NCBI GenBank assembly: GCA_963807165.1
Contig: CAWDZM010000004.1
Span: forward strand, 2,670 to 66,669
Length of the DNA: 64,000 nucleotides
Reading direction: 5' to 3'
Source of the DNA: an uncultured bacterium
Lineage (GTDB): Bacteria; Patescibacteriota; Minisyncoccia; UBA6257; 2-01-FULL-56-20
Below, piece by piece: positions 6,962 to 62,157 of the stretch (the stretch's first letter is position 1; every line of letters begins with the position of its first letter). Below the pieces are notes generated by a model. That model was not told where the DNA came from, did not search any database, and saw only the letters and a program-made list of their open reading frames with translations. Position numbers and translations under genes: made by a program.

Positions 6962-7034
6962 GCCGACGTAGCTCAGTGGTAGAGCAGGGCTTTCATAAGG
7001 CCAAGGTCGCAGGTTCGATCCCTGCCGTCGGCAC
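6962..7034 (+). tRNA. tRNA-Met (anticodon CAU); elongator Met or Ile2 (lysidine) type, not initiator-like (G1:C72 pair, no 3 G:C in anticodon stem)
   Basis: Cloverleaf GCCGACG/CGTCGGC acceptor, GCTC/GAGC D-stem, anticodon loop TTCATAA, T-arm GCAGG-TTCGATC-CCTGC; TTGAAA-N17-TATAGT promoter at 6891-6919. Confidence 0.8.
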
Positions 7035-7105: not shown

Positions 7106-7423
7106 ATGATTCTTCTTTTGTTGTTGTGTTCAGGTATTGGATATCTTGCGCGATATCTCTATCGGGAAGAGATAGGGATGCGTCGGTATCTATCGGCTCT
7201 TGAGAACCATAACGATATGTATTTTCTTTATCTCCAACTCTTCGATGATCCATTCATCTCTTCGGAGAAGTGGAGGACGTGGCTTCCGATATTTGAATAT
7301 GCTGACCGCTGCCTGATTGCTACCCATGCGGGTGTCAAGCTGGAAGGTCAGGAGATCTTCAACTTGGGTGAGGCCGTCAGAAAGCAGATCGACAATCTTC
7401 CCTGCGGGGACTCACTGGTTTAG
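7106..7423 (+). CDS. Hypothetical protein
   Basis: 105-aa ORF, no recognisable domain. Confidence 0.25.
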   Translation: MILLLLLCSGIGYLARYLYREEIGMRRYLSALENHNDMYFLYLQLFDDPFISSEKWRTWLPIFEYADRCLIATHAGVKLEGQEIFNLGEAVRKQIDNLPCGDSLV

Positions 7424-7491
7424 TGAGTCTTTTTTTATGCGGGTAGCGGATGATTGCTCTGTGTCGCCCTTTTTGATACCATCACTATTAT

Positions 7492-8628
7492 ATGGAATAT
7501 GTGATTTCGACGGAGGAACAGAAGAAGATTTTGGCAACGGTAGATGCCCGCACGGATGCGGAGGCCCAGCGCATCAAGCGCTATCTTGCGATGCCGGATC
7601 TTTCGCGCACACCGGGCAGCCCGATCCATGAGATCGTGGCTCGGATCCTTGCGAGCGATTATTTCAAAGGACTCGATACGATAGAGACCCCGGAGATTGT
7701 TCCGGCAGACATTAGTTTCGACCTTTTTGATTTTCCTGCGGATCATCCTGCCAGGAGCAAGTCCGATACGTATTACGCCGACGACAAAAACATCCTTCGG
7801 ACCCACACCACGGTCATGTGGTATTACTATCTCAATCAGAGTGGCGTCAAGGAACGCATCGCGGAAAATAAACCCATCGGCGCTTTCAGCTTCGGCAAAG
7901 TGTACCGCAAGGATGAGATCGATCGGCGGCACATGAATGTGTTCCATCAGATCGATGGCTGGTATTTGGCGCCGAAGGCCGTGAGGACGATCGGTCAGGC
8001 GGACTTGGAGGAAGCGTTGAAGACCATCGCTCATGCCGTGTTCGGACCCGATGTGAAATATCGTTTGAATAAAGATACGTTCCCATACACAGATCCCAGT
8101 TTGGAAATGGAAGTAGAGGTTGATGGGAAATGGGTTGAGGTGCTCGGCTGCGGCGTGGTCAAGGGAAGTGTTTTGAAAAAGCTTGGCGTTGATCCGGATA
8201 ACTATACCGGTTGGGCGTTCGGGTTCGGCATCGAGCGGCTCGCTATTGTCAGCATGGAACTTCCGGACATCCGATTGCTATGGTCCGACGATCCGCGCGT
8301 GAAGAAGCAGCTCCGTCTCGGCACAAAGTTCGTGGAGGTCAGCAAATATCCGCCTATCATCCGCGACATTTCGTTCATCGTGCCGAAGACATTTGCGCCG
8401 AACGATTACTTTGATCTCGTGCGCGACATTGCGGGCGATCTTGTGGAGCAGGTGGAACTTATCGATGAATATGCGAATGACGCAAAGTTTGGCGCGGAAA
8501 AAAAGAGCTACGCGTATCGCATCACATACCGCTCAAGCGACCGCACTTTGACGAATGAGGAAGTGGACGTGTTGCACAAGAAGATAGAGGAGGGGACGGT
8601 GAAGGAATTCGGCGCGGTAGTGCGGTAG
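7492..8628 (+). CDS. pheS: Phenylalanyl-tRNA synthetase, monomeric mitochondrial-type (class II catalytic core plus C-terminal FDX-ACB anticodon-binding domain)
   Basis: PheS motifs FPADHPARSKSDTYY (motif 2 region) and GWAFGFGIERLAIV (motif 3). C-terminal KYPPIIRDISFIVPK...YFDLVRDIAGDLVEQVELIDEY...YAYRITYRSSDRTLTNEEV closely parallels the FDX-ACB domain of human FARS2. No pheT in window. Confidence 0.8.
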   Translation: MEYVISTEEQKKILATVDARTDAEAQRIKRYLAMPDLSRTPGSPIHEIVARILASDYFKGLDTIETPEIVPADISFDLFDFPADHPARSKSDTYYADDKNILRTHTTVMWYYYLNQSGVKERIAENKPIGAFSFGKVYRKDEIDRRHMNVFHQIDGWYLAPKAVRTIGQADLEEALKTIAHAVFGPDVKYRLNKDTFPYTDPSLEMEVEVDGKWVEVLGCGVVKGSVLKKLGVDPDNYTGWAFGFGIERLAIVSMELPDIRLLWSDDPRVKKQLRLGTKFVEVSKYPPIIRDISFIVPKTFAPNDYFDLVRDIAGDLVEQVELIDEYANDAKFGAEKKSYAYRITYRSSDRTLTNEEVDVLHKKIEEGTVKEFGAVVR

Positions 8629-9628: not shown

Positions 9629-11101
9629 ATGAAATCAATGGCAAAGCCGAAGACGGAGGTTCCCGAAGAGGTGGTGCTGGTATCAAAAACGCTTGCCGAG
9701 GCGGGGTTTGAGGCGTATCTGGTGGGTGGCTGCGTGCGGGATATGTTACTTGATCGCGAGCCGAAGGATTGGGATGTGGCGACGGATGCAAAACCGGCGG
9801 AGGTGCAAACGTTATTCACCGAAAGCGTGTACGAGAACGATTTTGGCACGGTGGGTATCAAGACCGAATCGGAGGATCCTCGCGCAAAGATCATCGAGGT
9901 GACAACCTACCGCATTGAAGGAAAGTACACTGATCAGCGGCATCCGGACGAGGTCAAGTTCGCTTCTAATATAGAGGACGATCTTTCGCGCCGCGATTTT
10001 ACCGTGAACGCGCTTGCGATGAATTTGAAGGGTGACGTAATCGATCCGTTCGGCGGAAAGAGCGATCTTGCCGCGCGCGTGATCCGCACCGTGGGCGAAC
10101 CGGAGGCGCGGTTCAGCGAGGATGCGTTGCGGCTGATGCGCGCGGTGCGCTTTTCGGTGGAGCTCGACTTTGAGATCGAGATGAACACGCGGCGCGCGAT
10201 CGTAAAACTGGCGGGCGGGTTGGAATTGATTGCAAAGGAGCGCGTGCGTGATGAGCTGACAAAGATTGTAATGACGCCGAACGCGGCAAAGGGGATTATC
10301 TTACTCGAAGAGCTTGATCTTCTTCGCTATGTTTTGCCGGAGCTTCGCGAAGGGATTGGCGTTGCGCAGAACAAACATCACATCTATACCGTTTTTGAAC
10401 ATAACGTCCGCGCGCTTGATTACACCGCTCATGAAAATTATTCGCTCGTGGTGCGCACGGCATCGCTCTTGCACGATGTCGGCAAGCCGAAGGTAAAAGG
10501 CGGCACCGGCATCGAGGCGACGTTCTATCAGCACGAATATGTCGGCGCGCGCATGGCGGTAAAGATGCTCGACCGCTTGCGGTTTTCGAAAGATTTCGTG
10601 GAACAGGTGGCGCACCTGGTGCGCATGCACATGTTCAATTACGACGACGGCGTGATCTCGCCTGCTGGCGTGCGCCGCTTGGTGGTGCGCGTCGGGCCGG
10701 AGAACATCGACGATTTATTAAAAGTCCGCGAGGCGGATCGCATCGGCTCCGGCGTCAAAAAAGCGGTACCGTACCGCCTGCGCCATTTGCTCTTTATGAT
10801 AGAGAAGGTCAAGCGCGATCCACTCTCGCCGAAGATGCTCGCACTCCGCGGTGATGCCCTGATGCCACTGCTCGGTCTGCCGCAATCCCGCCGCGTTGGC
10901 TGGATCCTGAACGCGTTAATGGAAGAAGTGATCGATGATCCAAAAAAGAATGATAAAAAATATTTAGAAAAGCGCGCAAAAGAATTGAACAAGATGAGCG
11001 ATGCGGAATTGCAGGAATTGTTCGCGAGCGCCCAGCAAAAAAAGCGCGAGGCAGAAGGGGAGATGGATGAGGATATAAAAAAGAAACATCACGTACAATA
11101 A
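9629..11101 (+). CDS. cca: CCA-adding tRNA nucleotidyltransferase with HD domain
   Basis: N-terminal polbeta-NTase motif (YLVGGCVRDMLL...DWDVAT), RRDFTVNALA, HD motif SLLHDVGKP; 490 aa. Confidence 0.85.
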   Translation: MKSMAKPKTEVPEEVVLVSKTLAEAGFEAYLVGGCVRDMLLDREPKDWDVATDAKPAEVQTLFTESVYENDFGTVGIKTESEDPRAKIIEVTTYRIEGKYTDQRHPDEVKFASNIEDDLSRRDFTVNALAMNLKGDVIDPFGGKSDLAARVIRTVGEPEARFSEDALRLMRAVRFSVELDFEIEMNTRRAIVKLAGGLELIAKERVRDELTKIVMTPNAAKGIILLEELDLLRYVLPELREGIGVAQNKHHIYTVFEHNVRALDYTAHENYSLVVRTASLLHDVGKPKVKGGTGIEATFYQHEYVGARMAVKMLDRLRFSKDFVEQVAHLVRMHMFNYDDGVISPAGVRRLVVRVGPENIDDLLKVREADRIGSGVKKAVPYRLRHLLFMIEKVKRDPLSPKMLALRGDALMPLLGLPQSRRVGWILNALMEEVIDDPKKNDKKYLEKRAKELNKMSDAELQELFASAQQKKREAEGEMDEDIKKKHHVQ

Positions 11102-11612: not shown

Positions 11613-11683
11613 CGGGCTGTAGTATACCGGTAGTACGTGCGATTCGGGTTCGTAAAGACCGGGTTCGATTCCCGGCAGCCCGA
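11613..11683 (+). tRNA. tRNA-Pro (anticodon CGG)
   Basis: Acceptor CGGGCTG/CAGCCCG, D-arm GTAT-ACCGGTA-GTAC, anticodon stem TGCGA/TCGTA with loop TTCGGGT (CGG, G37), T-arm CCGGG-TTCGATT-CCCGG. Confidence 0.8.
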
Positions 11684-11695
11684 CAAGAAAAACAA

Positions 11696-12318: not shown

Positions 12319-12338
12319 GAGCAAGTCAGCATTGGGAT

Positions 12339-15322
<2,984 letters not shown>

Positions 15323-15657: not shown

Positions 15658-15786
15658 TTTTGATGTCGGTGCTTCATTCGGGCGTGCCCCACCTCTTCCC
15701 ATTCCGAACAGAGAAGTGAAAGCGTCCCAATCCCATGATACTTGCGGGTTCGCCTGCGGGGAAAGTAGGATGTGCCGACATCAAAG
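15658..15786 (+). rRNA. rrf: 5S ribosomal RNA (ends approximate)
   Basis: Conserved 5S segments CCCATTCCGAACAGAGAAGTGAAAGCG and GGGAAAGTAGGATGTGCCGACATC; helix I formed by 15658-15669 with 15775-15785. Confidence 0.75.
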
Positions 15787-19341: not shown

Positions 19342-26079
<6,738 letters not shown>

Positions 26080-31734: not shown

Positions 31735-33500
31735 TTAAAGAGTCTTCTCTTTTACCTCGCCCTCTATCTTTTTAATAAAATCCGCGAGCGCGATCTCCTT
31801 CTCTTCTCCTTTGCGGTCGCGCACGTTCACGGTGTTGCCGCTGACCTCTTTTTCTCCGACGACGATGACGTAGGGCACCTTCATCATCTCCGCTTCGCGG
31901 ATGCGCTTGCCGAGTGATTCGTTTGCGTCGGCGAGTTCCGCGCGGATGCCGACGGCGAGGAGTGCTTCGTGAACACTCTTTCCGTAATCCGCAAATTTTT
32001 CGCTGACGGGAAGGATCGTTGTTTGCACTGGCGAAAGCCAAACGGGGAACTTGCCAGCGAAGTGTTCGATGATAACGGAAAGGAATCGTTCAATCGAACC
32101 CATGATGGCGGCATGGATCATCACGATCCGTTCATGCTCACCATTCTCATTAATACAAAAGAGATCAAAGCGCTCGGGCTGATTCATGTCGAGCTGGATC
32201 GTTGCCACCTGTACCGAACGTCCGAGCGCATCCTTGCCCATAAAGTCAATCTTCGGACCGTAGAGCGCGGCCTCGCCCGGAGCCTCGACTGCGTTCGCAC
32301 CGTGCTCCTTTATGAGCTGGCGTAAATGTTCTTCTGCGGTGCGCCACACCTCCGGCGTGCCAAGATATTTTTCGGGATGCTCGGGGTCGTGCAACGAGAG
32401 TCGGACGGAAAGTTCAAAACCAAACGCGCCATAAAATTCGGTGATGATATCCCAGACTTTGAATATCTCATCCTTTATCTGCGAGGTGCGACAGAACACA
32501 TGGGCATCATCCTGGGTGATGGAGAGCACGCGGGAAAGCCCGGCGAGTTCGCCGGACTGCTCATCGCGATATACCTTCGTGGTCGTCGCATAGCGTTGAG
32601 GAAGTTCGCGGTAGCTCCACTGCTTGCGGGCATAGATCTGCGTGTGGTGCGGGCAGTTCATCGGCTTCATCGCATAGAGATGTCCTTCGCGCGTTTCTAT
32701 CTTAAACAACTCATCTTTAAACTTATCCCAATGCCCGCTCTTTTCATAAAGATCTTTTTTTGTGATGTGGGGGATATCCACCTGGAGATAGCCGCGCTGT
32801 TTGCGCAAACTCCACACAAAGTCATCCAAAAGATTTCGGAGCGTCGTGCCCTTTGGAGTCCAGAGCGGAAGCCCCGGGCCGACAAGCTCAGAGAACGTGA
32901 AGAGATCGAGCTTAGGCCCGAGGATTTTGTGATCGCGCTTCTTGGCCTCCTCAACCATCTTTTCATAATCTTTTAATGCTTCCTTACTCTCGAATGCCAA
33001 TCCATAGATGCGCTGGAGTTGTTGGTTCTTTTCATCGCCGCGCCAGTAGGCGCCCGCGATCTTGTCGAGCGTAAAGCCGTCGGCGGGAATCTCGGAAGTA
33101 TTCTCCACATGGCCGCCGCGGCAGAGATCCATAAAGACATCGCCAGTTTCGTAGACGGTCAATGTTTTATCCTCGGCTGCGAAGTCGTTTATTAAATCCA
33201 GTTTAAATGGCTGATGGGCAGAAAAGCTTTTTTGCTTCGGCGACGCTGACCTCGCGTCCGGTGAATGGGAGTTTCTTATTCACAAAACTGCGCATCGTCT
33301 TCTCGAGCGTCTTCAGGTCGTCCGGCGTGATCGCGCGGGGGAGCAGGAAGTCATAATAAAATCCATTTTCCACCGTCGGGCCGATGCCGAGCTTGGCGTC
33401 GGGAAACTCTTTGAGTCACCGCCGCCGCAAGGAGGTGGGCGAGCGAGTGCCGGACGTGATCGAGTTTTTTTGCTGAGCCGTCGGATGGGTTATTTGGCAT
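31735..33500 (-). CDS. thrS: Threonyl-tRNA synthetase lacking the N-terminal TGS domain; reading frame interrupted by two apparent single-nt frameshifts (near 33225 and 33435)
   Basis: Main ORF 31735-33162 has class II core and anticodon-binding domain. Upstream segments in the other two frames encode the N2 editing-domain start ([12 protein letters not shown] / [23 protein letters not shown] / ...[32 protein letters not shown]); shifts coincide with A/T homopolymer runs. Confidence 0.75.
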
Positions 33501-49571: not shown

Positions 49572-52500
49572 ATGAAAAAAATCATTCAGAAGAAATTATC
49601 CGTTGTGGCATTTCTTGGGGCATTTGCCTTGGGTTCCGTCATGATGGGAGGCAGTTTTTCTTCGGCTCCGATTGCGCACGCTGCAGGTCTTTCGTCTTGC
49701 TCCGTCGCCACTGCGATGTCCGATACCGTGAGCGATGCGAACCCAAAGACGGGCGAGACGATCACGTATACCTTGGAAGGTGCACCGGCATTCACCGCGT
49801 CGACAACCATCACGGTCACCGATACGTTGGGCACGGGGCTTACCTTCGTTTCCGAAACCCCTTCAGTGGGAACCTATTCCAGTTCTACTGGAACGTGGAG
49901 CGTGGGAACGTTGAACGGCGCTTCGTTCATCTCGCTTGCCATCACGGCAACGGTGAACGCGAATGCTACGGGAACGATCGTCAATACTCCGAGCATCAAT
50001 TATGTTCAGAGCAATTGCACGCAAAGTTCCGCGGCAGGATCGGCGACGATCACCATTCAGGCAGCGCCGGTAATCGTCACTCCGACGAGTACACCGACGT
50101 CAACCATCCCTTCTACTGCCGACCTCTCGATCAGCAAGACCGCTGATGTGACCTCGACAATCGAAGGTGGCACGGTAAATTATACGGTCACCGTGACCAA
50201 CCTCAGCAGCTCGACGACTTCAACTGACGTTGTTGCTACTGATACATTGCCTCTCGGACTTACGTTTGAAGATGCAACGGCTTCGGCCAGCACTTCATAC
50301 GCAAGCTCAACAGGCACGTGGACGATCGGCGAACTTTCGCCGAACTCTACAGCGACGCTTGATATCGCTGCGTTGGTGAATGCGAGTACCACCGGTACCA
50401 TCACGAATACCGCGACCGTCTCTGCGAGCACCACTGATTCGAACACCGCGAACAACAGTTCCAGCGCTTCGATCGTGGTAACGCCGAACGCGCCGAGCCC
50501 TTGTTCTTTGTCGGCCAGCGAATTTGAGGCTGACATAAACAACGGCACGATCATAGCAGGCAACATTGTGCTCAACAACGCGAGTGGCACTGCGTCGTTC
50601 ACCATCGTGAACGGCACTCAGTGCACCGCACCGATCAGTCTTGCGTCTTACAAAATGTTCGTCGCACCCGGAGGCCCGCAATGGCTTTCAGTGCAACAGC
50701 TTATTGATTCGACCTCGACCTCGGCGCTTTCTGCCAGTTCAACGACGACGTTCGTCGTGAATATCGCACCGTGCATGACCCAGGTAGACGCCTTTTATGG
50801 GCCGGTACCTGCCATGCCGCTCGTTGATAACACCGCACTCTATAACTATCCAAACGTTCCGTACTTACTCGCATGGACATGGACCAATACTCCTCTCTGT
50901 GCAGTAACCCCTTCCGCCGATCTCTCGATCAGCAAGACCGCTGACGTGACCTCGACGACCGAAGGCGGCACGGTCAACTACACCGTCGCCGTAAAGGACC
51001 TTGGTCCTGCGACATCGACCGATGTCATCGCGACCGATACCTTGCCCTCAACGCTTACCTTTGTTTCAGCAACTACGTCGGAAGGCTTCTACGCGAGCTC
51101 GACAGGAATCTGGACAATCGGTGACATGAGCGCAAGTTCAACCGCAACGCTTACCATCGCCGCAAAGGTGAACACGGGAACTGCAAGTTCTACGATCACG
51201 AACACGGCGTCGGTAGCGGAGTCCGCCAGCACCACCGATCCGAACCTCGCGAACAACAGTTCGAGCGTATCGGTGGCGGTGGCACCGAACGTGTGCACGG
51301 TTAATTGTGGAGGCGGCTCTACAAATGCCGACATCGCGATCGCAAAGATCGCTGATGTGACCTCGACCGTTGAAGGTGGCACTGTCCATTACGCGATCAC
51401 CGTGACCGCAAATGGTCCGCTTCCTTCGACCAACGTTGTAGCAACAGACACGTTGCCTTTGGGTTTGACGTTTGAGAATGCAACGGCTTCGGCCAGCACC
51501 TCGTACGCAAGTTCAACGGGCACGTGGACGATCGGCACACTTGGGCCGAACGCAACGGCGACGCTCGACATCGAGGCAACCGTGAATCCGAGCGCAAGCT
51601 CGACGATCACAAACACCGCGACGGTGAGCGAATCCTCGACGTTGACCGATACGAATCTGTCCAATAACAGTTCCTCGGTGACGGTCGTGGTGACGCCGAA
51701 CGTGTGCACGAGCGATTGCATAGGCGGCACGGATGCCGACCTTGCAGTTGCAAAGACGGTAGATAACGCGAACCCTGCGGTCGGCGATACGGTGCATTAC
51801 ACCGTCACCGTCACCGACAACGGTCCTGCGGAATCGACCTTCGTCCATGCGACCGATCAATTGCCAAGCGGATTGGGATTTGTTTCCGCAACCACATCGC
51901 AGGGATCATATAATATGACCACCGGCGATTGGAACATCGGAACGATCTCCCCGAACGCGACGGCAACACTGACCATGGCCGCGTTGGTTGAACCCGGCGA
52001 TGCCGGAGTTGCACTCGTGAACACCGCGAGCGTGGCTTCGCAGCTTAGCTCGTGGATCGACGGCAACCTTGCCAACAACAGTTCTTCGGTAACGGTCAAC
52101 GTTCAGTCGGCCGGCTGCACGAGTAACTGCGGCGGCGGGGGAGGGGGCGGTGGCGGCAGTGTTCAATCGAACATCGCCATCGTGAAGACGGTGGATGACA
52201 GCACTCCGGCAACGGGCGCGATCATTCATTACACCCTGACCGTGACCGATTCTGGTCCGTCCGATTCATTCGGCGTAACCGCATCGGACATATTGCCCGC
52301 AGGCGTCACCTTTGATTCAGCATCCTCTTCGGAAGGCTCCTACGTGAGCTCGACGGGGGTCTGGACGATCGGTGCAATCGCTGACGGACAATCCGCAACG
52401 CTTGTAATCACCGCAACGGTGAACGCAGCGGGCGGAACGACCATCACGAATACCGGTACTGTTTCTGAAAACCCAGGCATCATCAATGCAACGCCGGGGA

Positions 52501-52967
52501 ATGCTTCCTCGAGCGTGAGCATCACTGTTGCCGGTGGCAATGGAGGTGGTGGCGGTAACAACAGTGGTGGTGGAGGAGGCGGTGGCGAAGTGCTCGGCGC
52601 AAGCACGAGTACGGGCCAGGTTCTCGGCGCAAGCTGCGGACTCTACCTTACCTCTTACATCCATCCGTTCCGTCAGAGTCTGAATGACCCGACGCAGGTA
52701 AAGAAACTCCAAACGTTCTTGAATATGAACCTTGGATTGAACTTGCCGGTGACGGGCGTCTATAATGCGGCGACGATCGCCGCAGTGAATCAGTTCCAGG
52801 TGAAGTATCACATCGAAGTACTCGCGCCGTGGCTCCCGTTGGGACTCCCGACGCAGTTCACTCCGACCAGCTACGTTTATCAAACGACGCAGCGCTGGAT
52901 CAATCTCATCATGTGCCCGCCGCTCAACTTGCCGGTTCCGGCGTTGAAGGTGGACAATGGTGAATAA
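49572..52967 (+). CDS. Large cell-surface protein: signal peptide, six DUF11-type 'conserved repeat' domains, poly-Gly linkers, C-terminal peptidoglycan-binding-like domain
   Basis: Repeats begin ADLSISKTADVTST.EGGTVNYTV.V.N.G...T.VVATDTLP.GLTF. GGGGGGGGGG runs. C-terminal ...KLQTFLNMNLGLNLPVTGVYNAATIAAVNQFQ resembles PG_binding_1. Confidence 0.65.
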   Translation: MKKIIQKKLSVVAFLGAFALGSVMMGGSFSSAPIAHAAGLSSCSVATAMSDTVSDANPKTGETITYTLEGAPAFTASTTITVTDTLGTGLTFVSETPSVGTYSSSTGTWSVGTLNGASFISLAITATVNANATGTIVNTPSINYVQSNCTQSSAAGSATITIQAAPVIVTPTSTPTSTIPSTADLSISKTADVTSTIEGGTVNYTVTVTNLSSSTTSTDVVATDTLPLGLTFEDATASASTSYASSTGTWTIGELSPNSTATLDIAALVNASTTGTITNTATVSASTTDSNTANNSSSASIVVTPNAPSPCSLSASEFEADINNGTIIAGNIVLNNASGTASFTIVNGTQCTAPISLASYKMFVAPGGPQWLSVQQLIDSTSTSALSASSTTTFVVNIAPCMTQVDAFYGPVPAMPLVDNTALYNYPNVPYLLAWTWTNTPLCAVTPSADLSISKTADVTSTTEGGTVNYTVAVKDLGPATSTDVIATDTLPSTLTFVSATTSEGFYASSTGIWTIGDMSASSTATLTIAAKVNTGTASSTITNTASVAESASTTDPNLANNSSSVSVAVAPNVCTVNCGGGSTNADIAIAKIADVTSTVEGGTVHYAITVTANGPLPSTNVVATDTLPLGLTFENATASASTSYASSTGTWTIGTLGPNATATLDIEATVNPSASSTITNTATVSESSTLTDTNLSNNSSSVTVVVTPNVCTSDCIGGTDADLAVAKTVDNANPAVGDTVHYTVTVTDNGPAESTFVHATDQLPSGLGFVSATTSQGSYNMTTGDWNIGTISPNATATLTMAALVEPGDAGVALVNTASVASQLSSWIDGNLANNSSSVTVNVQSAGCTSNCGGGGGGGGGSVQSNIAIVKTVDDSTPATGAIIHYTLTVTDSGPSDSFGVTASDILPAGVTFDSASSSEGSYVSSTGVWTIGAIADGQSATLVITATVNAAGGTTITNTGTVSENPGIINATPGNASSSVSITVAGGNGGGGGNNSGGGGGGGEVLGASTSTGQVLGASCGLYLTSYIHPFRQSLNDPTQVKKLQTFLNMNLGLNLPVTGVYNAATIAAVNQFQVKYHIEVLAPWLPLGLPTQFTPTSYVYQTTQRWINLIMCPPLNLPVPALKVDNGE
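50118..52560 (+). repeat. Tandem coding repeats (about 400 nt each, five copies after a more divergent first copy) encoding the DUF11 domains
   Basis: Recurrent nucleotide blocks such as ctctcgatcagcaagaccgctgatgtgacctcgac at 50124 and 50930, and acgtttgaa(g/a)atgcaacggcttcggccagcac at 50262 and 51466. Confidence 0.6.
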
Positions 52968-59702: not shown

Positions 59703-60224
59703 ATGGTGGATGCCATGAATACATTTTTAAATGATTTTAACGGCGTTATAAGCGTCATCGGTTTTACCTCGATGGTCGTTGGATTTATTTACGTCGGTAA
59801 AAAGCTGCAGATATTAGATGAATTAAAAGATACGGTCGATGTTATAAAGCACAATCTGAAAGTTGTGACCGATTTTCTCATAAAGAAATTTCCAGACTTT
59901 AATCACGAAGATTTGCGGAACTATAGTCCTGTTCAGCTGAGTGAGCATGGCAAAGACTTCATCATGTCTATTGGCTTTGACATGATATTTATGGAGAACA
60001 AAAAAGATTTCTTCGAGGTTATCGATGATGATTCGCCAAAAATGAAGTACGATGTGCAAACAAGTGCTATTAAATCCATTTACGCGCTTTCGGACAAAGC
60101 ATATATGGATCGCGTGAAGACATATCTTTATGACCATCCGGATCGGAAAATGGATAGAGTCGCTTCTACCCTCGGCATATATATCCGCGATTACTATCTG
60201 GCAGAACATCCGGAAATCAATTAA
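59703..60224 (+). CDS. Hypothetical protein (AT-rich gene)
   Basis: 173-aa ORF, N-terminal hydrophobic helix; lower GC than neighbours. Confidence 0.35.
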   Translation: MVDAMNTFLNDFNGVISVIGFTSMVVGFIYVGKKLQILDELKDTVDVIKHNLKVVTDFLIKKFPDFNHEDLRNYSPVQLSEHGKDFIMSIGFDMIFMENKKDFFEVIDDDSPKMKYDVQTSAIKSIYALSDKAYMDRVKTYLYDHPDRKMDRVASTLGIYIRDYYLAEHPEIN

Positions 60225-60234
60225 CATAGACTTT

Positions 60235-62157
60235 ATGACCCTATCAGAAGTCCGTTCCCGATATCTGGCATTTTTCAAAGCCCGTGGTCACGTGGTGGTG
60301 CCTTCCGCGTCGCTCGTGCCGGAGAATGATCCGACCACGCTTTTTACAAGTTCGGGCATGCAACCACTCGTACCATATTTGCTTGGCCAACCGCATCCGG
60401 AAGGTAAGCGCATCACGGACTCGCAAAAGAGTTTCCGCGCCGACGACATCGACGAGGTGGGCGACAATCGTCATACCACATTCTTTGAGATGCTCGGCAA
60501 CTGGTCACTCGGCGATTATTTTAAACAAGAACAACTCTCATGGTTTTTTGAGTTTTTAACGGACAAAGAAAAAGGCGTCGGTCTCGATCCGATGAATTTA
60601 TATGTGACGGTGTTTGCGGGAGATTCGGAGATGGAAATTCCCGCGGACGATGAATCGGTCAAAATTTGGAAAGAACTTTTTCTTTCAAAAGAGATTGATG
60701 CAAAGTATGTTCAACTTGGTTCGGAAGCAAACGGCAGTGTGATGGGCATGCAAGGCGGCCGCATTTTTTCGTACGATGTAAAAAAGAATTGGTGGTCGCG
60801 CGCAGGCGTGCCGTCCAAGATGCCAGTGGGTGAGCCGGGTGGCCCGGATTCGGAAGTGTTCTACGACTTTGGCGTTACGGACGAGCACGGCACGCCCCGC
60901 CATAGCGTAGCATTCGGCGCACAGTGCCATCCGAACTGCGACTGCGGCCGTTTCCTCGAGATCGGCAACAGCGTTTTTATGGAATACAAAAAGCGTGAGG
61001 ACGGCGCATTTGAGAAGTTGATTCAGAAGAACGTGGACTTCGGCGGTGGGTTAGAGCGCATCACCGCCGCGACGAACGGGGACTCGGATGTGTTTAAGAT
61101 TGATGTCTTCAAGAAAATGGCGGAAGTTTTTACGCTCGATCCCGCATTCATGGAGACCGAAGAAGGGGTGAGGAAGGTACGTGTGGTTTTAGATCACATG
61201 CGCGCATCGGTATTTTTGATCGGCGACGGCGTCCTGCCATCAAATAAAGGACAGGGATATGTGTTGCGTCGCTTGCTCCGCCGCACAGCACTTTTTTCCA
61301 TGCAGTCTATAAAGCCGGAGTATGGCTGGGTAACAAAAATCGTCGGCGTATTGGCTGGTCTCTATAAAGATAGCTATCAGAACATCGCCGACGATGCGGA
61401 TACTATCATAAAAGTCATCGCGGAAGAATTCGCGAAGTTTATGGCTGCGGTGGATGAAGGATTAAAAGAATTTAAAAAACGCGAGATGACGGGGGCTATC
61501 ACCGGCAAGGACGCGTTCGACCTCTATCAAAGCTATGGATTCCCCTGGGAACTTACGCAGGAGATGGCAACAGAAAAAGGCATCAAGGTGAATAAGGAAG
61601 AATTCGAAGCTGAGTTCACTAAACATCGCGACCTCTCCCGCACTGCCTCTGCAGGCACGTTCAAGGGTGGCCTTGCTGATACTTCGGAAAAAACGGTGCG
61701 CTTGCACACTACGCACCATCTATTATTACGCGCCTTGCAGCAGGTGCTCGGGTCGACGGTCAAACAGCGGGGGAGCAACATCACGAGCGAACGCCTTCGC
61801 CTCGACTATCTGCATGACGCCAAGTTGACAGATGAACAAAAGAAAGAAGTGGAGCGCATTGTGAACGAAAAGATCGCAGAGGACTTGCCGGTGGTCCGTA
61901 GCGAGATGCCGCTCGAGGAAGCGGAGAAGCTTGGCGCCGAGCACGAGTTTGGGCAGAAATATCCGGCGCGGGTGTCGGTGTATTCCATCGGGCCGAAGAG
62001 TGCAACCTTGGAAAACCCCCAGTTTGATAAGGCATTTTCCATAGAGTTCTGCGGCGGCCCGCATGTTGCGCATACCGGCGAGATTGGGCACTTTGCGATC
62101 GCAAAAGAAGAGGCGGTGGCGGCGGGAATCCGCCGCATTCGCGGAGTGATCGAATAA
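60235..62157 (+). CDS. alaS: Alanyl-tRNA synthetase, short form (catalytic, tRNA-recognition and editing domains; no C-Ala domain)
   Basis: MTLSEVRSRYLAFFKARGHVVVPSASLVPENDPTTLFTSSGMQ..., FFEMLGNWSLGDYFK, editing-domain HTTHHLL and C-terminal CGGPHV. Confidence 0.85.
   Translation: MTLSEVRSRYLAFFKARGHVVVPSASLVPENDPTTLFTSSGMQPLVPYLLGQPHPEGKRITDSQKSFRADDIDEVGDNRHTTFFEMLGNWSLGDYFKQEQLSWFFEFLTDKEKGVGLDPMNLYVTVFAGDSEMEIPADDESVKIWKELFLSKEIDAKYVQLGSEANGSVMGMQGGRIFSYDVKKNWWSRAGVPSKMPVGEPGGPDSEVFYDFGVTDEHGTPRHSVAFGAQCHPNCDCGRFLEIGNSVFMEYKKREDGAFEKLIQKNVDFGGGLERITAATNGDSDVFKIDVFKKMAEVFTLDPAFMETEEGVRKVRVVLDHMRASVFLIGDGVLPSNKGQGYVLRRLLRRTALFSMQSIKPEYGWVTKIVGVLAGLYKDSYQNIADDADTIIKVIAEEFAKFMAAVDEGLKEFKKREMTGAITGKDAFDLYQSYGFPWELTQEMATEKGIKVNKEEFEAEFTKHRDLSRTASAGTFKGGLADTSEKTVRLHTTHHLLLRALQQVLGSTVKQRGSNITSERLRLDYLHDAKLTDEQKKEVERIVNEKIAEDLPVVRSEMPLEEAEKLGAEHEFGQKYPARVSVYSIGPKSATLENPQFDKAFSIEFCGGPHVAHTGEIGHFAIAKEEAVAAGIRRIRGVIE

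What the first reader, a model, noticed from the sequence alone, without database searches (positions are those of the whole stretch)
7492..8628. Monomeric, mitochondrial-type phenylalanyl-tRNA synthetase (PheS core + FDX-ACB domain) with no pheT nearby
The 378-aa protein carries the PheS class II motifs. It lacks the long N-terminal coiled coil of bacterial PheS. It ends with a domain (KYPPIIRDISFIVPK…YFDLVRDIAGDLVEQVELIDEY…YAYRITYRSSDRTLTNEEV) that aligns closely with the FDX-ACB anticodon-binding domain of human mitochondrial FARS2.

Bacteria normally use an (alpha-beta)2 PheRS with the FDX-ACB domain on PheT, and no pheT follows here. Together with the short AlaRS and the TGS-less ThrRS, this indicates a streamlined aaRS complement.
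Basis: partly seen in the sequence, partly recalled or inferred. Interest (0 to 1): 0.6.

Follow-up and report, generated by a model that had tools for sequence, protein, structure and literature searches.

The report
Bacterial single-chain (mitochondrial-type) phenylalanyl-tRNA synthetase
This gene from an ultrasmall Patescibacteria (CPR) bacterium encodes a one-chain phenylalanine-tRNA-charging enzyme built like the human mitochondrial enzyme rather than the usual four-subunit bacterial one, it belongs to a large, very conserved bacterial clade that annotation pipelines leave unnamed, and I could not check whether it is the cell's only such enzyme.

Summary
The ORF at 7492..8628 (+) encodes 378 aa: a PheS class II core (Pfam tRNA-synt_2d, 1.8e-55) fused to a C-terminal FDX-ACB anticodon-binding domain (5.5e-24). 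Its best solved relative is human mitochondrial PheRS (E 3e-62). The AlphaFold model (pLDDT 94.8) matches that enzyme's closed state at TM 0.78-0.80.

It is not a mitochondrial sequence. It belongs to a separate bacterial clade (NJ bootstrap 100%) found in Parcubacteria/Paceibacterota (at least 298 hits among GTDB species genomes) and, more distantly, in Gracilibacteria.

The Phe-pocket and ATP motifs are near-invariant in 200 members. The related "SrmL mystery ligase" has a remodelled pocket. Between the same genome pairs this gene is more conserved (71-73% identity) than ThrRS or SerRS (48-50%).

No pheT or second pheS lies in the window or in 85 related loci, but that test has low power, and genome-wide absence could not be checked.

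About 29% of the related loci carry a 140-aa PheT-B2-like gene just upstream, or fused. The window does not.

Best reading (0.75): the housekeeping, editing-less, single-chain PheRS. Novelty: new variant of a known kind. I found no paper describing it.

The parts
7492..8628 (+). Gene for the 378-aa single-chain PheRS (PheS core fused to FDX-ACB), stop codon included
   Evidence: ORF; Pfam; full-length homologs of 378-400 aa at 73-95% identity and 100% coverage confirm the start codon.
7492..7665 (+). Short N-terminal helical region (aa 1-58), in place of the ~100-aa coiled-coil arm of bacterial PheS
   Evidence: The AF2 model has helices at 8-19, 23-33 and 44-53 with pLDDT above 90. E. coli PheS aligns only from its residue 108. 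This region is shared with the Paceibacteria representative P0121, Oligoflexia P0124 and Gracilibacteria P0127 and not with mitochondrial-type sequences.
7666..8316 (+). Class IIc catalytic core (aa 59-275, tRNA-synt_2d)
   Evidence: Pfam PF01409, 1.8e-55. Mean identity to the query across 200 family members is 82%. It is contiguous, without the insertion that splits the core in many eukaryotic FARS2 sequences.
7798..7812 (+). RTHTT motif (aa 103-107), equivalent to RTHTS/RTQTS of PheS (amino-acid and adenylate site)
   Evidence: R103 and T107 are invariant and H105 is kept in 191 of 200 members; aligned with E. coli, mitochondrial and SrmL sequences in A1. The functional role comes from my knowledge of published PheRS structures.
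7894..7959 (+). Class II motif 2 (aa 135-156, GKVYRKDEIDRRHMNVFHQIDG)
   Evidence: G135, K136, V137, R139, D141, D144, H147, N149, F151, H152 and Q153 are invariant in 200 members. R139, D141, D144, H147 and Q153 are invariant across the 54 diverse sequences of alignment A2, and also across the 13-sequence alignment A1, which includes E. coli PheS.
8080..8100 (+). Phe-pocket signature FPYTDPS (aa 197-203), equivalent to FPFTEPS of bacterial PheS
   Evidence: F197, P198, T200, P202 and S203 are invariant and Y199 is kept in 199 of 200 members. SrmL has HPYTxNG/HPYTxEG at this position.
8209..8244 (+). Class II motif 3 (aa 240-251, GWAFGFGIERLA), including the specificity alanine (A242, aligned with the alanine of E. 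coli GFAFG)
   Evidence: W241, A242, F243, G244, G246, E248, R249 and A251 are invariant in 200 members. SrmL has GLA[S/M/L]G at this position.
8341..8625 (+). C-terminal FDX-ACB anticodon-binding domain (aa 284-378), homologous to the B8 domain of PheT
   Evidence: Pfam PF03147, 5.5e-24, full profile. It matches pheT_bact positions 697-798. RDIS(F) at 291-295, S339, Y346, R347, T352 and L353 are invariant or nearly so. In the model it is docked on the core as in the closed state of 3cmq.
7406..7432 (+). Terminator-like hairpin (12 pairs followed by a T run) at the end of the upstream 105-aa ORF; it suggests the PheRS gene is its own transcription unit
   Evidence: sequence. This is a consensus match only.
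6962..7034 (+). tRNA-Met (CAU) upstream; a tRNA-Met upstream of this gene recurs in related loci
   Evidence: In several related loci a tRNA-Met lies directly upstream of the gene (for example L021, L060, L064, L068, L073, L076).
9629..11101 (+). CCA-adding enzyme gene, a loosely conserved neighbour (context only, not part of the enzyme)
   Evidence: Pfam PolyA_pol, PolyA_pol_RNAbd and HD. An ortholog lies within 10 kb of the PheRS gene in 20 of 85 related loci and in L001/L002.

Best explanation
The gene encodes the housekeeping phenylalanyl-tRNA synthetase of a Patescibacteria bacterium of the Parcubacteria/Paceibacterota group. A single polypeptide does the job of the canonical bacterial (alpha-beta)2 enzyme. 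The PheS-type class II core activates phenylalanine with ATP and transfers it to tRNA-Phe. The fused C-terminal FDX-ACB domain, which is the homolog of the PheT B8 domain, reads the GAA anticodon. By analogy with human mitochondrial PheRS, the enzyme would rest in a closed state with the anticodon-binding domain docked on the core, and swing open on a hinge (about residues 276-283) to bind tRNA. It has no B3/B4 editing domain, so accuracy would depend on the synthetic site alone. What is shown: the architecture, the fold, conservation of the catalytic and Phe-pocket residues, strong purifying selection, housekeeping context, and wide distribution in this bacterial group. What is inferred: aminoacylation of tRNA-Phe, monomeric state, the closed-to-open mechanism, and that it is the only PheRS in the cell.
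For: Architecture: tRNA-synt_2d plus a complete FDX-ACB.

Closest solved relative: human mitochondrial PheRS, E 3e-62, against about 1e-39 for bacterial PheS alpha and 2e-8 for PheT B8.

Fold: AF2 model with pLDDT 94.8 and pTM 0.90. Foldseek gives TM 0.78-0.80 and rmsd about 3 A to the closed-state structures 3cmq/5mgu, and TM 0.58 to the tRNA-bound open state 3tup.

Active site: RTHTT, motif 2, FPYTDPS and GWAFGFGxERLA are invariant or nearly so in 200 non-identical family members. They match E. coli PheS and eukaryotic FARS2, whereas the paralogous SrmL family changes the pocket to HPYTxNG and GLA[S/M/L]G.

Selection: between the same genome pairs this protein is 71-73% identical, against 50% for ThrRS, 48% for SerRS, 48% for GatB and 71% for the CCA-adding enzyme.

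Context: the neighbours are housekeeping and variable (tRNA-Met, CCA-adding enzyme, dUTPase, 23S/5S rRNA, fused rpoBC, GatB, ThrRS, SerRS), and there is no dedicated accessory cluster.

Distribution: more than 7,000 clusters at 90% identity. 298 hits among GTDB species genomes, found with just six 8-residue peptide patterns (matched exactly) taken from this protein; named records among the 80 kept loci include Nomura-, Zambryski-, Doudna-, Brenner-, Giovannoni- and Yanofskybacteria. A distant branch occurs in Gracilibacteria.

No canonical partner seen: no PheT B3-B7 region and no second PheS in the window or in 85 related loci totalling 1.37 Mb.

PheT remnants: in 23 related loci a 140-aa PheT-B2-like gene lies directly upstream, and in 2 it is fused. 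This looks like the leftover of a dismantled beta subunit.
Against: Genome-wide absence of pheS/pheT was not tested, because no tool scans a whole genome.

The local absence is weak evidence. The 86 neighbourhoods collapse to about 44 arrangements, each covering about 2% of a genome. A pheT placed at random would still be missed with a probability of about 0.4.

The protein scores equally well against the 'PheS-related mystery ligase SrmL' model (254.4 bits) and the mitochondrial PheRS model (255.3 bits), and lies below both cutoffs. In the NJ tree it groups with SrmL and an Oligoflexia paralog at 69%, so its nearest bacterial relatives may not be PheRS enzymes.

Two active-site positions differ from canonical PheS: FPY instead of FPF, and HQxDG instead of HQxEG.

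No biochemical data exist for any member, and no tRNA-Phe gene was seen in the window or the loci.
Confidence: 0.75

Rival explanations
1. It is an extra PheS-like paralog that coexists with a canonical pheS-pheT pair elsewhere in the genome. It would act as a second PheRS, for example stress- or antibiotic-resistant, or have a side function.
For: Fused PheS/FDX-ACB proteins do occur in larger-genome bacteria. One example is Oligoflexia P0124 in a non-housekeeping neighbourhood. A related core-only protein, P0126, sits among GH92 and LytTR-type genes. Whether those genomes also have canonical pheST was not checked. The absence of pheT near the gene has low power. Some CPR lineages are reported to have a PheRS beta subunit (PMC5370408).
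Against: Patescibacterial genomes are small (the one complete chromosome seen here is 829 kb), so keeping three genes for two PheRS systems seems unlikely; this is inference. The gene is more conserved than ThrRS and SerRS in the same genome pairs. It is found in at least 298 GTDB species genomes. No second PheS-like hit appears in 1.43 Mb of sampled sequence. Many related loci keep only a B2 fragment of PheT beside it.
Confidence: 0.12
2. It is the catalytic chain of a reduced two-component PheRS, not a true monomer. It would work with a small trans-acting tRNA-binding partner (the PheT-B2-like 140-aa protein) encoded elsewhere in this genome.
For: 23 of 85 related loci have a B2-like ORF 17-230 bp upstream (671 bp in one locus), and 2 loci have it fused in frame (506-aa P0048). 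The ORF scores best against pheT_bact positions 38-152 (105-112 bits), above YtpR (84-89 bits). It forms a family of at least 667 proteins of about 140 aa, which JGI labels 'PheRS beta chain'.
Against: The window has no B2-like ORF: an HMM built from the 23 ORFs gives no hit in a six-frame translation, and tblastn gives only noise. About 70% of the related loci lack it next to the gene. The B2 domain is reported to be dispensable for aminoacylation in E. coli PheRS (title of Roy and Ibba 2006, as cited in PMC5370408). Human mitochondrial PheRS needs no partner (published knowledge; PMC3275996 abstract).
Confidence: 0.1
3. It is a member of, or works like, the SrmL 'PheS-related mystery ligase' family and ligates something other than phenylalanine to tRNA-Phe.
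For: NF051887 scores 254.4 bits, about the same as the mitochondrial model. It groups with true SrmL sequences in the NJ tree at 69%.
Against: It is below the SrmL cutoff of 300 bits, while true SrmL sequences score 375-442. The SrmL pocket residues (HPYTxNG, GLA[S/M/L]G, P or E in place of the adenine-stacking F) are not present here. The one SrmL locus examined lies beside a radical-SAM / NUDIX-like / Asn-synthase-like operon, and nothing similar lies near this gene.
Confidence: 0.03

Closest known systems
Mitochondrial/organellar monomeric PheRS (human FARS2, yeast MSF1; NCBIfam TIGR00469 pheS_mito; 'PheRS-M' in AARS Online; PDB 3CMQ, 3TUP)
   Same: The two-module architecture is the same: a PheS-type class IIc core with a C-terminal FDX-ACB domain and no B1-B7 domains, so no editing domain. 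It is the best sequence match among solved structures (E 3e-62). The predicted fold is the same, in the closed state (TM 0.78-0.80). The motif 2, motif 3 and Phe-pocket signatures are the same.
   Different: This protein is bacterial and chromosomal, sitting among rRNA, RNA polymerase and tRNA genes. It forms a separate clade outside the clade that holds the identified eukaryotic sequences. It scores just under the family cutoff, and 0 of 117 close relatives reach it. It is more compact at 378 aa: it lacks the insertion that splits the core in human and many other eukaryotic enzymes, and it has no targeting peptide. It has its own 58-aa N-terminal helical region, shared only with bacterial relatives. 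Some relatives add a B2-type tRNA-binding protein or domain.
Canonical bacterial (alpha-beta)2 PheRS (PheS TIGR00468 plus PheT TIGR00472)
   Same: The catalytic core is homologous to PheS (165 bits; 35% identity to E. coli PheS residues 108-327). The C-terminal domain is homologous to PheT B8 (73 bits to pheT_bact positions 697-798).
   Different: It is one chain instead of two. It has no coiled-coil arm and none of the B1, B3/B4 editing, B5 or B6/B7 domains. It is below the PheS cutoff (165 against 237 bits). There is no adjacent pheT.
SrmL, 'PheS-related mystery ligase' (NCBIfam NF051887)
   Same: It has the same core plus FDX-ACB-like architecture, is bacterial, and is the nearest bacterial sister group in the NJ tree.
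   Different: SrmL has a remodelled substrate pocket and a different motif 3. In the one locus examined it is next to a radical-SAM operon. The window protein is 46 bits below the SrmL cutoff.
Virus-encoded single-chain PheRS (huge phages, giant viruses)
   Same: Same architecture. A 348-aa protein (P0273) lies on a 340-kb phage-like scaffold. There is a full-length hit on the 634,780-bp uncultured phage record LR745206.1. Yasminevirus P0222 is another example.
   Different: Of these, the one included in the tree (P0139, representative of the P0273 cluster) falls in the mitochondrial-like clade and is 35% identical to the window protein. P0222 and LR745206.1 were not placed in a tree; LR745206.1 is 27.7% identical. 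The window gene itself lies in a cellular chromosomal context.

Membership tests
Monomeric mitochondrial-type PheRS (TIGR00469 / PheRS-M) | PheS-type class IIc catalytic core fused to a C-terminal FDX-ACB domain on one chain | tested here: met
   Pfam PF01409 (1.8e-55) plus PF03147 (5.5e-24, full-length profile).
Monomeric mitochondrial-type PheRS (TIGR00469 / PheRS-M) | Whole-protein score at or above the curated equivalog cutoff (258.35 bits) | tested here: not met
   255.3 bits. 0 of 117 close relatives reach the E-value equivalent to the cutoff. A 68%-identical representative, P0121, just passes at 264.3 bits.
Monomeric mitochondrial-type PheRS (TIGR00469 / PheRS-M) | Three-dimensional fold and domain arrangement of the solved enzyme | tested here: met
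   AF2 model with pLDDT 94.8. Foldseek TM 0.78-0.80 to 3cmq/5mgu/5mgw over about 388 columns.
Monomeric mitochondrial-type PheRS (TIGR00469 / PheRS-M) | Conserved class II motifs and Phe-binding pocket residues | tested here: met
   Alignment with FARS2 sequences and E. coli PheS; invariance in 200 family members.
Monomeric mitochondrial-type PheRS (TIGR00469 / PheRS-M) | Phylogenetic placement within the eukaryotic organellar clade | tested here: not met
   The NJ tree puts it in a separate bacterial clade (100%). That clade groups with SrmL, Oligoflexia and Gracilibacteria sequences at 69%, and the mitochondrial-like clade has 67%. The method is simple: NJ with a single outgroup.
Monomeric mitochondrial-type PheRS (TIGR00469 / PheRS-M) | Active as a monomer, without a beta subunit; charges tRNA-Phe | not testable with these tools
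   This needs biochemistry and a whole-genome search. The only evidence here is local absence of pheT, which has low power.
SrmL PheS-related mystery ligase (NF051887) | Score at or above the cutoff of 300 bits | tested here: not met
   254.4 bits; true members score 375-442.
SrmL PheS-related mystery ligase (NF051887) | SrmL-type pocket (HPYTxNG/HPYTxEG; GLA[S/M/L]G in motif 3) | tested here: not met
   The window protein has FPYTDPS and GWAFG. The signature was derived here from four SrmL sequences, not from a published definition.
SrmL PheS-related mystery ligase (NF051887) | Neighbourhood with radical-SAM / NUDIX-like / Asn-synthase-like genes | tested here: not met
   Seen in the single SrmL locus examined, L013. 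Absent around the window gene and its relatives. One SrmL locus is a thin basis.
Canonical bacterial PheS alpha subunit (TIGR00468) | Score at or above the cutoff of 237.45 bits, with the N-terminal coiled-coil arm | tested here: not met
   165 bits. Only 58 residues precede the core, and E. coli PheS aligns from its residue 108.
Canonical bacterial PheS alpha subunit (TIGR00468) | Partner pheT gene, usually adjacent | tested here: not met
   No PheT match other than the ORF's own FDX-ACB domain in the window. No B3-B7 match in 85 related loci. Presence elsewhere in the genome was not testable.

The most novel reading that the evidence does not exclude
The fusion of the PheS core with the PheT B8 domain did not arise in eukaryotes. 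It would be an old bacterial invention that serves as the sole cytoplasmic PheRS of whole Patescibacteria classes (Paceibacteria and Gracilibacteria), which would then run translation without any PheRS editing domain. Mitochondrial FARS2, and the huge-phage and giant-virus copies, would descend from such a bacterial single-chain lineage rather than from an alphaproteobacterial pheST pair. The B2-only mini-beta genes would be intermediates left from the breakdown of PheT.
Probability: 0.3. Interest if true: 0.8.

Novelty: new variant of a known kind. Interest (0 to 1): 0.55.

Why it matters
Reviews present single-chain PheRS as an organellar peculiarity and (alpha-beta)2 as the universal bacterial form (PMC3275996 abstract; the AARS Online paper lists PheRS-M only with FARS2/3CMQ).

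If this clade is the sole PheRS of Parcubacteria and Gracilibacteria, four things follow.

1. A large share of bacterial diversity charges tRNA-Phe with a 378-aa enzyme that has no B3/B4 editing domain. That makes the cost of unedited Tyr and m-Tyr misacylation testable in free-living or epibiotic cells.

2. The origin of mitochondrial PheRS can be re-examined with a bacterial outgroup that already carries the fusion.

3. Annotation and completeness pipelines that rely on PheS/PheT markers will report these genes as missing. NCBI's models name none of the 117 close relatives tested, and the NCBI records that carry a name say 'hypothetical protein'. JGI calls the protein an alpha chain and calls the 140-aa B2 protein a beta chain.

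4. It is one of the smallest natural PheRS scaffolds, which could be useful for engineering.

Tried and rejected
**Contamination.** I considered a eukaryotic or mitochondrial contaminant and rejected it. The gene lies on a contig with bacterial 23S/5S rRNA, a fused rpoBC, GatB and tRNAs, and its closest relatives are all from Patescibacteria MAGs.

**Phage origin of the window gene.** Rejected for the same reason. Phage and giant-virus copies do exist; the phage-like copy included in the tree falls in the mitochondrial-like clade, not with the window protein.

**Whole-genome test for pheT.** Not possible.
- The one genome-contig scan returns only 10 kb on each side of a match.
- The window protein is not in the gene-position index.
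- Walking along a contig would need far more look-ups than allowed.
- I could not obtain a Patescibacteria PheT seed.
- The core-only hits I followed turned out to be a eukaryote (L012) and a non-CPR paralog (L010).

**Local scan as a substitute.** E. coli PheT and PheS against 1.37 Mb of related loci found no canonical genes. I estimate the power as low.

**Literature.** Ten full-text searches and seven papers read found no description of a bacterial or CPR single-chain PheRS and nothing on 'SrmL'. This covers the open-access library only and is not proof of absence.

**Other dead ends.**
- The afdb50 fold library was unavailable.
- Rfam found no leader or T-box upstream of the gene.
- The promoter scan gave nothing useful on the + strand.
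- The phylogeny was limited to NJ with Kimura distances and a single outgroup, because no ML program is installed. Deep branching is not settled.
Full report
**1. The observation**

Pfam finds the PheS-type class II core (tRNA-synt_2d, residues 59-273, E 1.8e-55). It also finds a complete ferredoxin-fold anticodon-binding domain (FDX-ACB, residues 284-378, profile 1-94 of 94, E 5.5e-24).

Against all PDB sequences the best hits are the human mitochondrial PheRS entries (3cmq, 8p8x, 5mg*; E about 3e-62). Bacterial PheS alpha chains follow at about 1e-39 and match only the core. PheT beta chains match at 2e-8 and only over residues 282-378.

Only 58 residues precede the core, and E. coli PheS aligns from its residue 108. 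The roughly 100-residue coiled-coil arm of bacterial PheS is therefore missing. In the whole 64-kb window, E. coli PheT matches nothing but this ORF's own C-terminal domain, and E. coli PheS matches nothing but this ORF.

**2. The organism and the surroundings**

The window is a bacterial chromosome segment:
- 23S rRNA (12338-15321) and 5S rRNA (15665-15780), with no 16S in the window
- three tRNAs
- a fused rpoB-rpoC ORF of 2245 aa, ribosomal proteins S6 and L11, SSB, GatB, MiaA, LepA, primase and sigma-70
- three more aaRS genes: SerRS; a 475-aa ThrRS without a TGS domain; and a 675-aa AlaRS with no domain hit after its tRNA_SAD

The immediate neighbours of the gene are:
- tRNA-Met (6962-7034)
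- a 105-aa ORF that ends in a terminator-like hairpin (7406-7432)
- a 307-aa ORF with no Pfam match
- the CCA-adding enzyme (9629-11101)
- dUTPase
- tRNA-Pro

Every named close homolog comes from Patescibacteria, Minisyncoccia, Paceibacterota or Parcubacteria MAGs.

**3. Size and shape of the family**

A word-indexed search found more than 7,000 clusters at 90% identity with E below 1e-10. The best 120 are 73-95% identical, and all but a few are 365-403 aa long and span 95-100% of the query.

A scan of one genome per GTDB species used only six 8-residue peptide patterns (matched exactly) from this protein and found 298 relatives. The best is 85% identical. Named records among the 80 kept loci include Nomura-, Zambryski-, Doudna-, Brenner-, Giovannoni- and Yanofskybacteria, and one locus lies on a closed 829-kb chromosome (OY970354.1). 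Many records carry a generic 'uncultured Candidatus Saccharibacteria' label, which I would not trust.

The exhaustive HMMER search at 50% clustering collapses this clade to essentially one full-length representative (P0121, 68% identity). It shows the wider family of core plus FDX-ACB proteins.

From domain mapping, family scans, source names and a neighbour-joining tree, the wider family contains:
- the Paceibacteria clade (bootstrap 100%)
- a Gracilibacteria/BD1-5 branch (P0127). Its gene has 13 in-frame TGA codons, several of which align with conserved glycines, which points to genetic code 25
- an Oligoflexia protein (P0124)
- the true SrmL 'mystery ligases' (NF051887 scores of 375-442 bits; bootstrap 100%)
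- a large 'mitochondrial-like' clade. It holds the eukaryotic FARS2 sequences I could identify (Branchiostoma, Salpingoeca, Vitrella) and the phage-like P0139/P0273.

Two further viral copies were not placed in the tree: the giant virus Yasminevirus P0222 and a full-length hit on the 634,780-bp phage record LR745206.1.

The first four groups cluster together at 69% bootstrap, and the mitochondrial-like clade has 67%. The window protein is thus mitochondrial-like in design, but it is not a member of the eukaryotic clade. It also falls just under the curated cutoff of the mitochondrial model (255.3 against 258.35 bits) and well under the SrmL cutoff (254.4 against 300).

**4. Is it a PheRS or a 'mystery ligase'?**

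In an alignment with E. coli PheS, two FARS2 sequences and four SrmL sequences, the window protein and its clade keep the PheRS signatures:
- RTHTT (PheS: RTQTS; FARS2: RPHTS/RAHTS)
- motif 2, GKVYRKDEIDxxHMNVFHQIDG
- the pocket motif FPYTDPS (PheS: FPFTEPS)
- motif 3, GWAFGFGxERLA, with the specificity alanine

SrmL replaces the pocket with HPYTxNG/HPYTxEG, changes motif 3 to GLA[S/M/L]G, and often loses the adenine-stacking phenylalanine. The functional roles of these motifs come from my knowledge of published PheRS structures.

Across 200 non-identical members of the Paceibacteria clade these positions are invariant or nearly so. The same holds for the FDX-ACB motifs RDISF and YR..(D/E)RTL.

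The single SrmL locus I examined sits back to back with a radical-SAM, NUDIX-like and Asn-synthase-like operon. Nothing similar accompanies the window gene or its relatives. These results argue that the clade has kept phenylalanine activation, while SrmL has moved to another substrate.

**5. Structure**

With a 54-sequence alignment, AlphaFold2 gives a confident model (mean pLDDT 94.8, pTM 0.90, no segment below 70). Foldseek against the PDB ranks human mitochondrial PheRS first: TM 0.78-0.80 and rmsd about 3 A over about 388 columns for the closed-state structures. The tRNA-bound open state 3tup superposes at only TM 0.58. Bacterial PheS chains match the core only.

The model therefore has the anticodon-binding domain docked on the catalytic domain, as in the closed mitochondrial enzyme. 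That the domain swings open to bind tRNA is an inference by analogy with 3cmq and 3tup.

**6. Is it essential, and is it the only PheRS?**

Points in favour:
- Between the window genome and the same related genomes, this protein is 71-73% identical. ThrRS is 50%, SerRS 48%, GatB 48%, L11 65% and the CCA-adding enzyme 71%.
- It is present across many candidate phyla of the Parcubacteria.
- No second PheS and no PheT B3-B7 region appears in the window or in 85 related loci (1.37 Mb).
- Genomes this small are unlikely to keep two PheRS systems (inference).

Limits:
- The 86 neighbourhoods reduce to about 44 arrangements. Even a universally present pheT would be missed by this sampling with a probability of about 0.4.
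- No tool allowed me to scan a whole genome.
- The window protein is not in the gene-position index.
- Other CPR groups are reported to have a PheRS beta subunit (PMC5370408).

'Sole PheRS' therefore remains an inference, which I rate at about 0.75-0.8.

**7. An unexpected companion gene**

In 23 of the 85 related loci, a roughly 140-aa ORF lies 17-230 bp upstream of the gene (671 bp in one locus). In two loci, from independent assemblies, it is fused in frame to give a 506-aa protein with tRNA_bind, core and FDX-ACB domains.

This ORF scores best against positions 38-152 of the bacterial PheT model, which is the B2 OB-fold domain (105-112 bits). That is higher than its score against YtpR (84-89 bits).

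It defines a family of at least 667 small proteins that carry only PF01588, and JGI labels them 'PheRS beta chain'. It looks like a remnant of PheT.

The window has no such ORF. Its gene follows a tRNA-Met instead. A tRNA-Met upstream of the gene recurs in the related loci, and among the loci checked, those with a B2 ORF show no tRNA gene directly upstream.

**8. Annotation and literature**

None of 117 close relatives reaches the E-value equivalent to the TIGR00469 cutoff, and none reaches the SrmL cutoff. This fits the 'hypothetical protein' names on the NCBI records that carry a name. JGI calls the protein 'PheRS alpha chain'.

Ten full-text searches found no paper describing a bacterial or CPR single-chain PheRS. 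The review abstract and papers retrieved present the monomeric form as mitochondrial, and the AARS Online paper lists PheRS-M only with FARS2/3CMQ. This is absence from one open-access library, not proof of novelty. The sequences themselves are abundant in public databases.

**9. Verdict**

The finding is real. The best explanation is a housekeeping, editing-less, single-chain PheRS that defines a bacterial sister lineage to the mitochondrial enzyme (confidence 0.75).

The main rival is a paralog alongside an unseen pheST pair (0.12). A two-component variant with a B2 mini-subunit encoded elsewhere (0.10) and an SrmL-like function (0.03) are less likely.

I class it as a new variant of a known kind. 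The design is known from organelles. The new elements are the bacterial clade, its compactness, its B2 companion gene and its probable role as the only PheRS of a large bacterial radiation.

Interest is moderate to high for specialists in aaRS and CPR biology. It is tempered by the untested genome-wide absence of pheT and by the fact that the sequences are already in databases.

Noticed in passing
L052:9462-9878, L023:9412-9846, L024:8460-8888 and 20 other related loci; fused form at L005:8001-9521 and L006:6673-8193: A roughly 140-aa ORF homologous to the B2 (tRNA_bind) domain of PheT lies directly upstream of the single-chain PheRS gene in 23 of 85 related loci, and is fused to it in 2. It forms a family of at least 667 small proteins that JGI labels 'PheRS beta chain'. 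The window itself has none.
   Followed up: yes
L008:10001-11047 (340,874-bp ENA scaffold); phage record LR745206.1 613821-614888; protein P0222 (Yasminevirus): Single-chain PheS plus FDX-ACB proteins are also encoded by a phage-like 340-kb scaffold (neighbours include PhageMetallopep, PcfJ and an SNF2 helicase), by a 634,780-bp uncultured phage record, and by a giant virus. The phage-like copy that was placed in the tree falls in the mitochondrial-like clade.
   Followed up: partly
L014:9463-10833 and L015:154-1524 (protein P0127): A 456-aa relative has 13 in-frame TGA codons, several of which align with conserved glycines (for example GFG in motif 3). This points to genetic code 25. Its relatives are named Gracilibacteria or 'uncultured bacterium (gcode 4)', so the single-chain enzyme also occurs in that CPR class. 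The database stores it translated with TGA read as Trp.
   Followed up: partly
L013:6282-11149: A true SrmL 'PheS-related mystery ligase' (P0240) is transcribed divergently from an operon of a radical-SAM protein, a NUDIX-like protein, an unknown protein and an Asn-synthase/QueC-like PP-loop protein. Its amino-acid pocket motifs differ from PheRS (HPYTxNG). Its substrate is unknown.
   Followed up: partly
window 7492-8628 and alignment A3: None of 117 close family members reaches the NCBIfam cutoff of either the mitochondrial PheRS model or the SrmL model. The NCBI records that carry a name call them 'hypothetical protein', so PheRS would look 'missing' in these genomes.
   Followed up: yes
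window 31735-33162 (-): The ThrRS ORF is at most 475 aa. It starts inside the tRNA_SAD domain, has no TGS domain and lacks most of the N-terminal editing domain. Only 380 nt separate it from the divergent SerRS gene, so the missing part is not encoded upstream. Together with this PheRS, it suggests several editing-less aaRS in one genome.
   Followed up: partly
window 60130-62157 (+): The AlaRS is 675 aa with tRNA-synt_2c and tRNA_SAD domains, and no hit to a C-terminal DHHA1/C-Ala domain.
   Followed up: no
window 19342-26079 (+): A single 2245-aa ORF carries all the RpoB domains followed by all the RpoC domains, that is, a fused beta-beta' RNA polymerase subunit.
   Followed up: no
window 12338-15321 and 15665-15780 (+): The 23S and 5S rRNA genes are present, with no 16S rRNA gene anywhere in the 64 kb.
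   Followed up: no
window 6962-7034 and 11613-11684; L021, L060, L064, L068, L073, L076 and others: There is a recurrent gene order around the PheRS gene: tRNA-Met (CAU) upstream and tRNA-Pro (CGG) a few kb downstream. Among the loci scanned for tRNAs, none with a B2-like ORF has a tRNA gene directly upstream of the PheRS gene.
   Followed up: partly
L010:10001-11197 (protein P0126) and L007:10001-11245 (protein P0124): PheS-like proteins occur outside CPR. One is a 398-aa protein with a CPR-like N-terminus and core but no FDX-ACB, in a GH92/LytTR-type neighbourhood. The other is a 414-aa core plus FDX-ACB protein in an Oligoflexia MAG. Their functions are unknown, and I did not check whether those genomes also have pheST.
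   Followed up: no
window 49572-52967 (+): A 1131-aa protein with six DUF11 repeats (E 5e-159), probably a surface protein.
   Followed up: no
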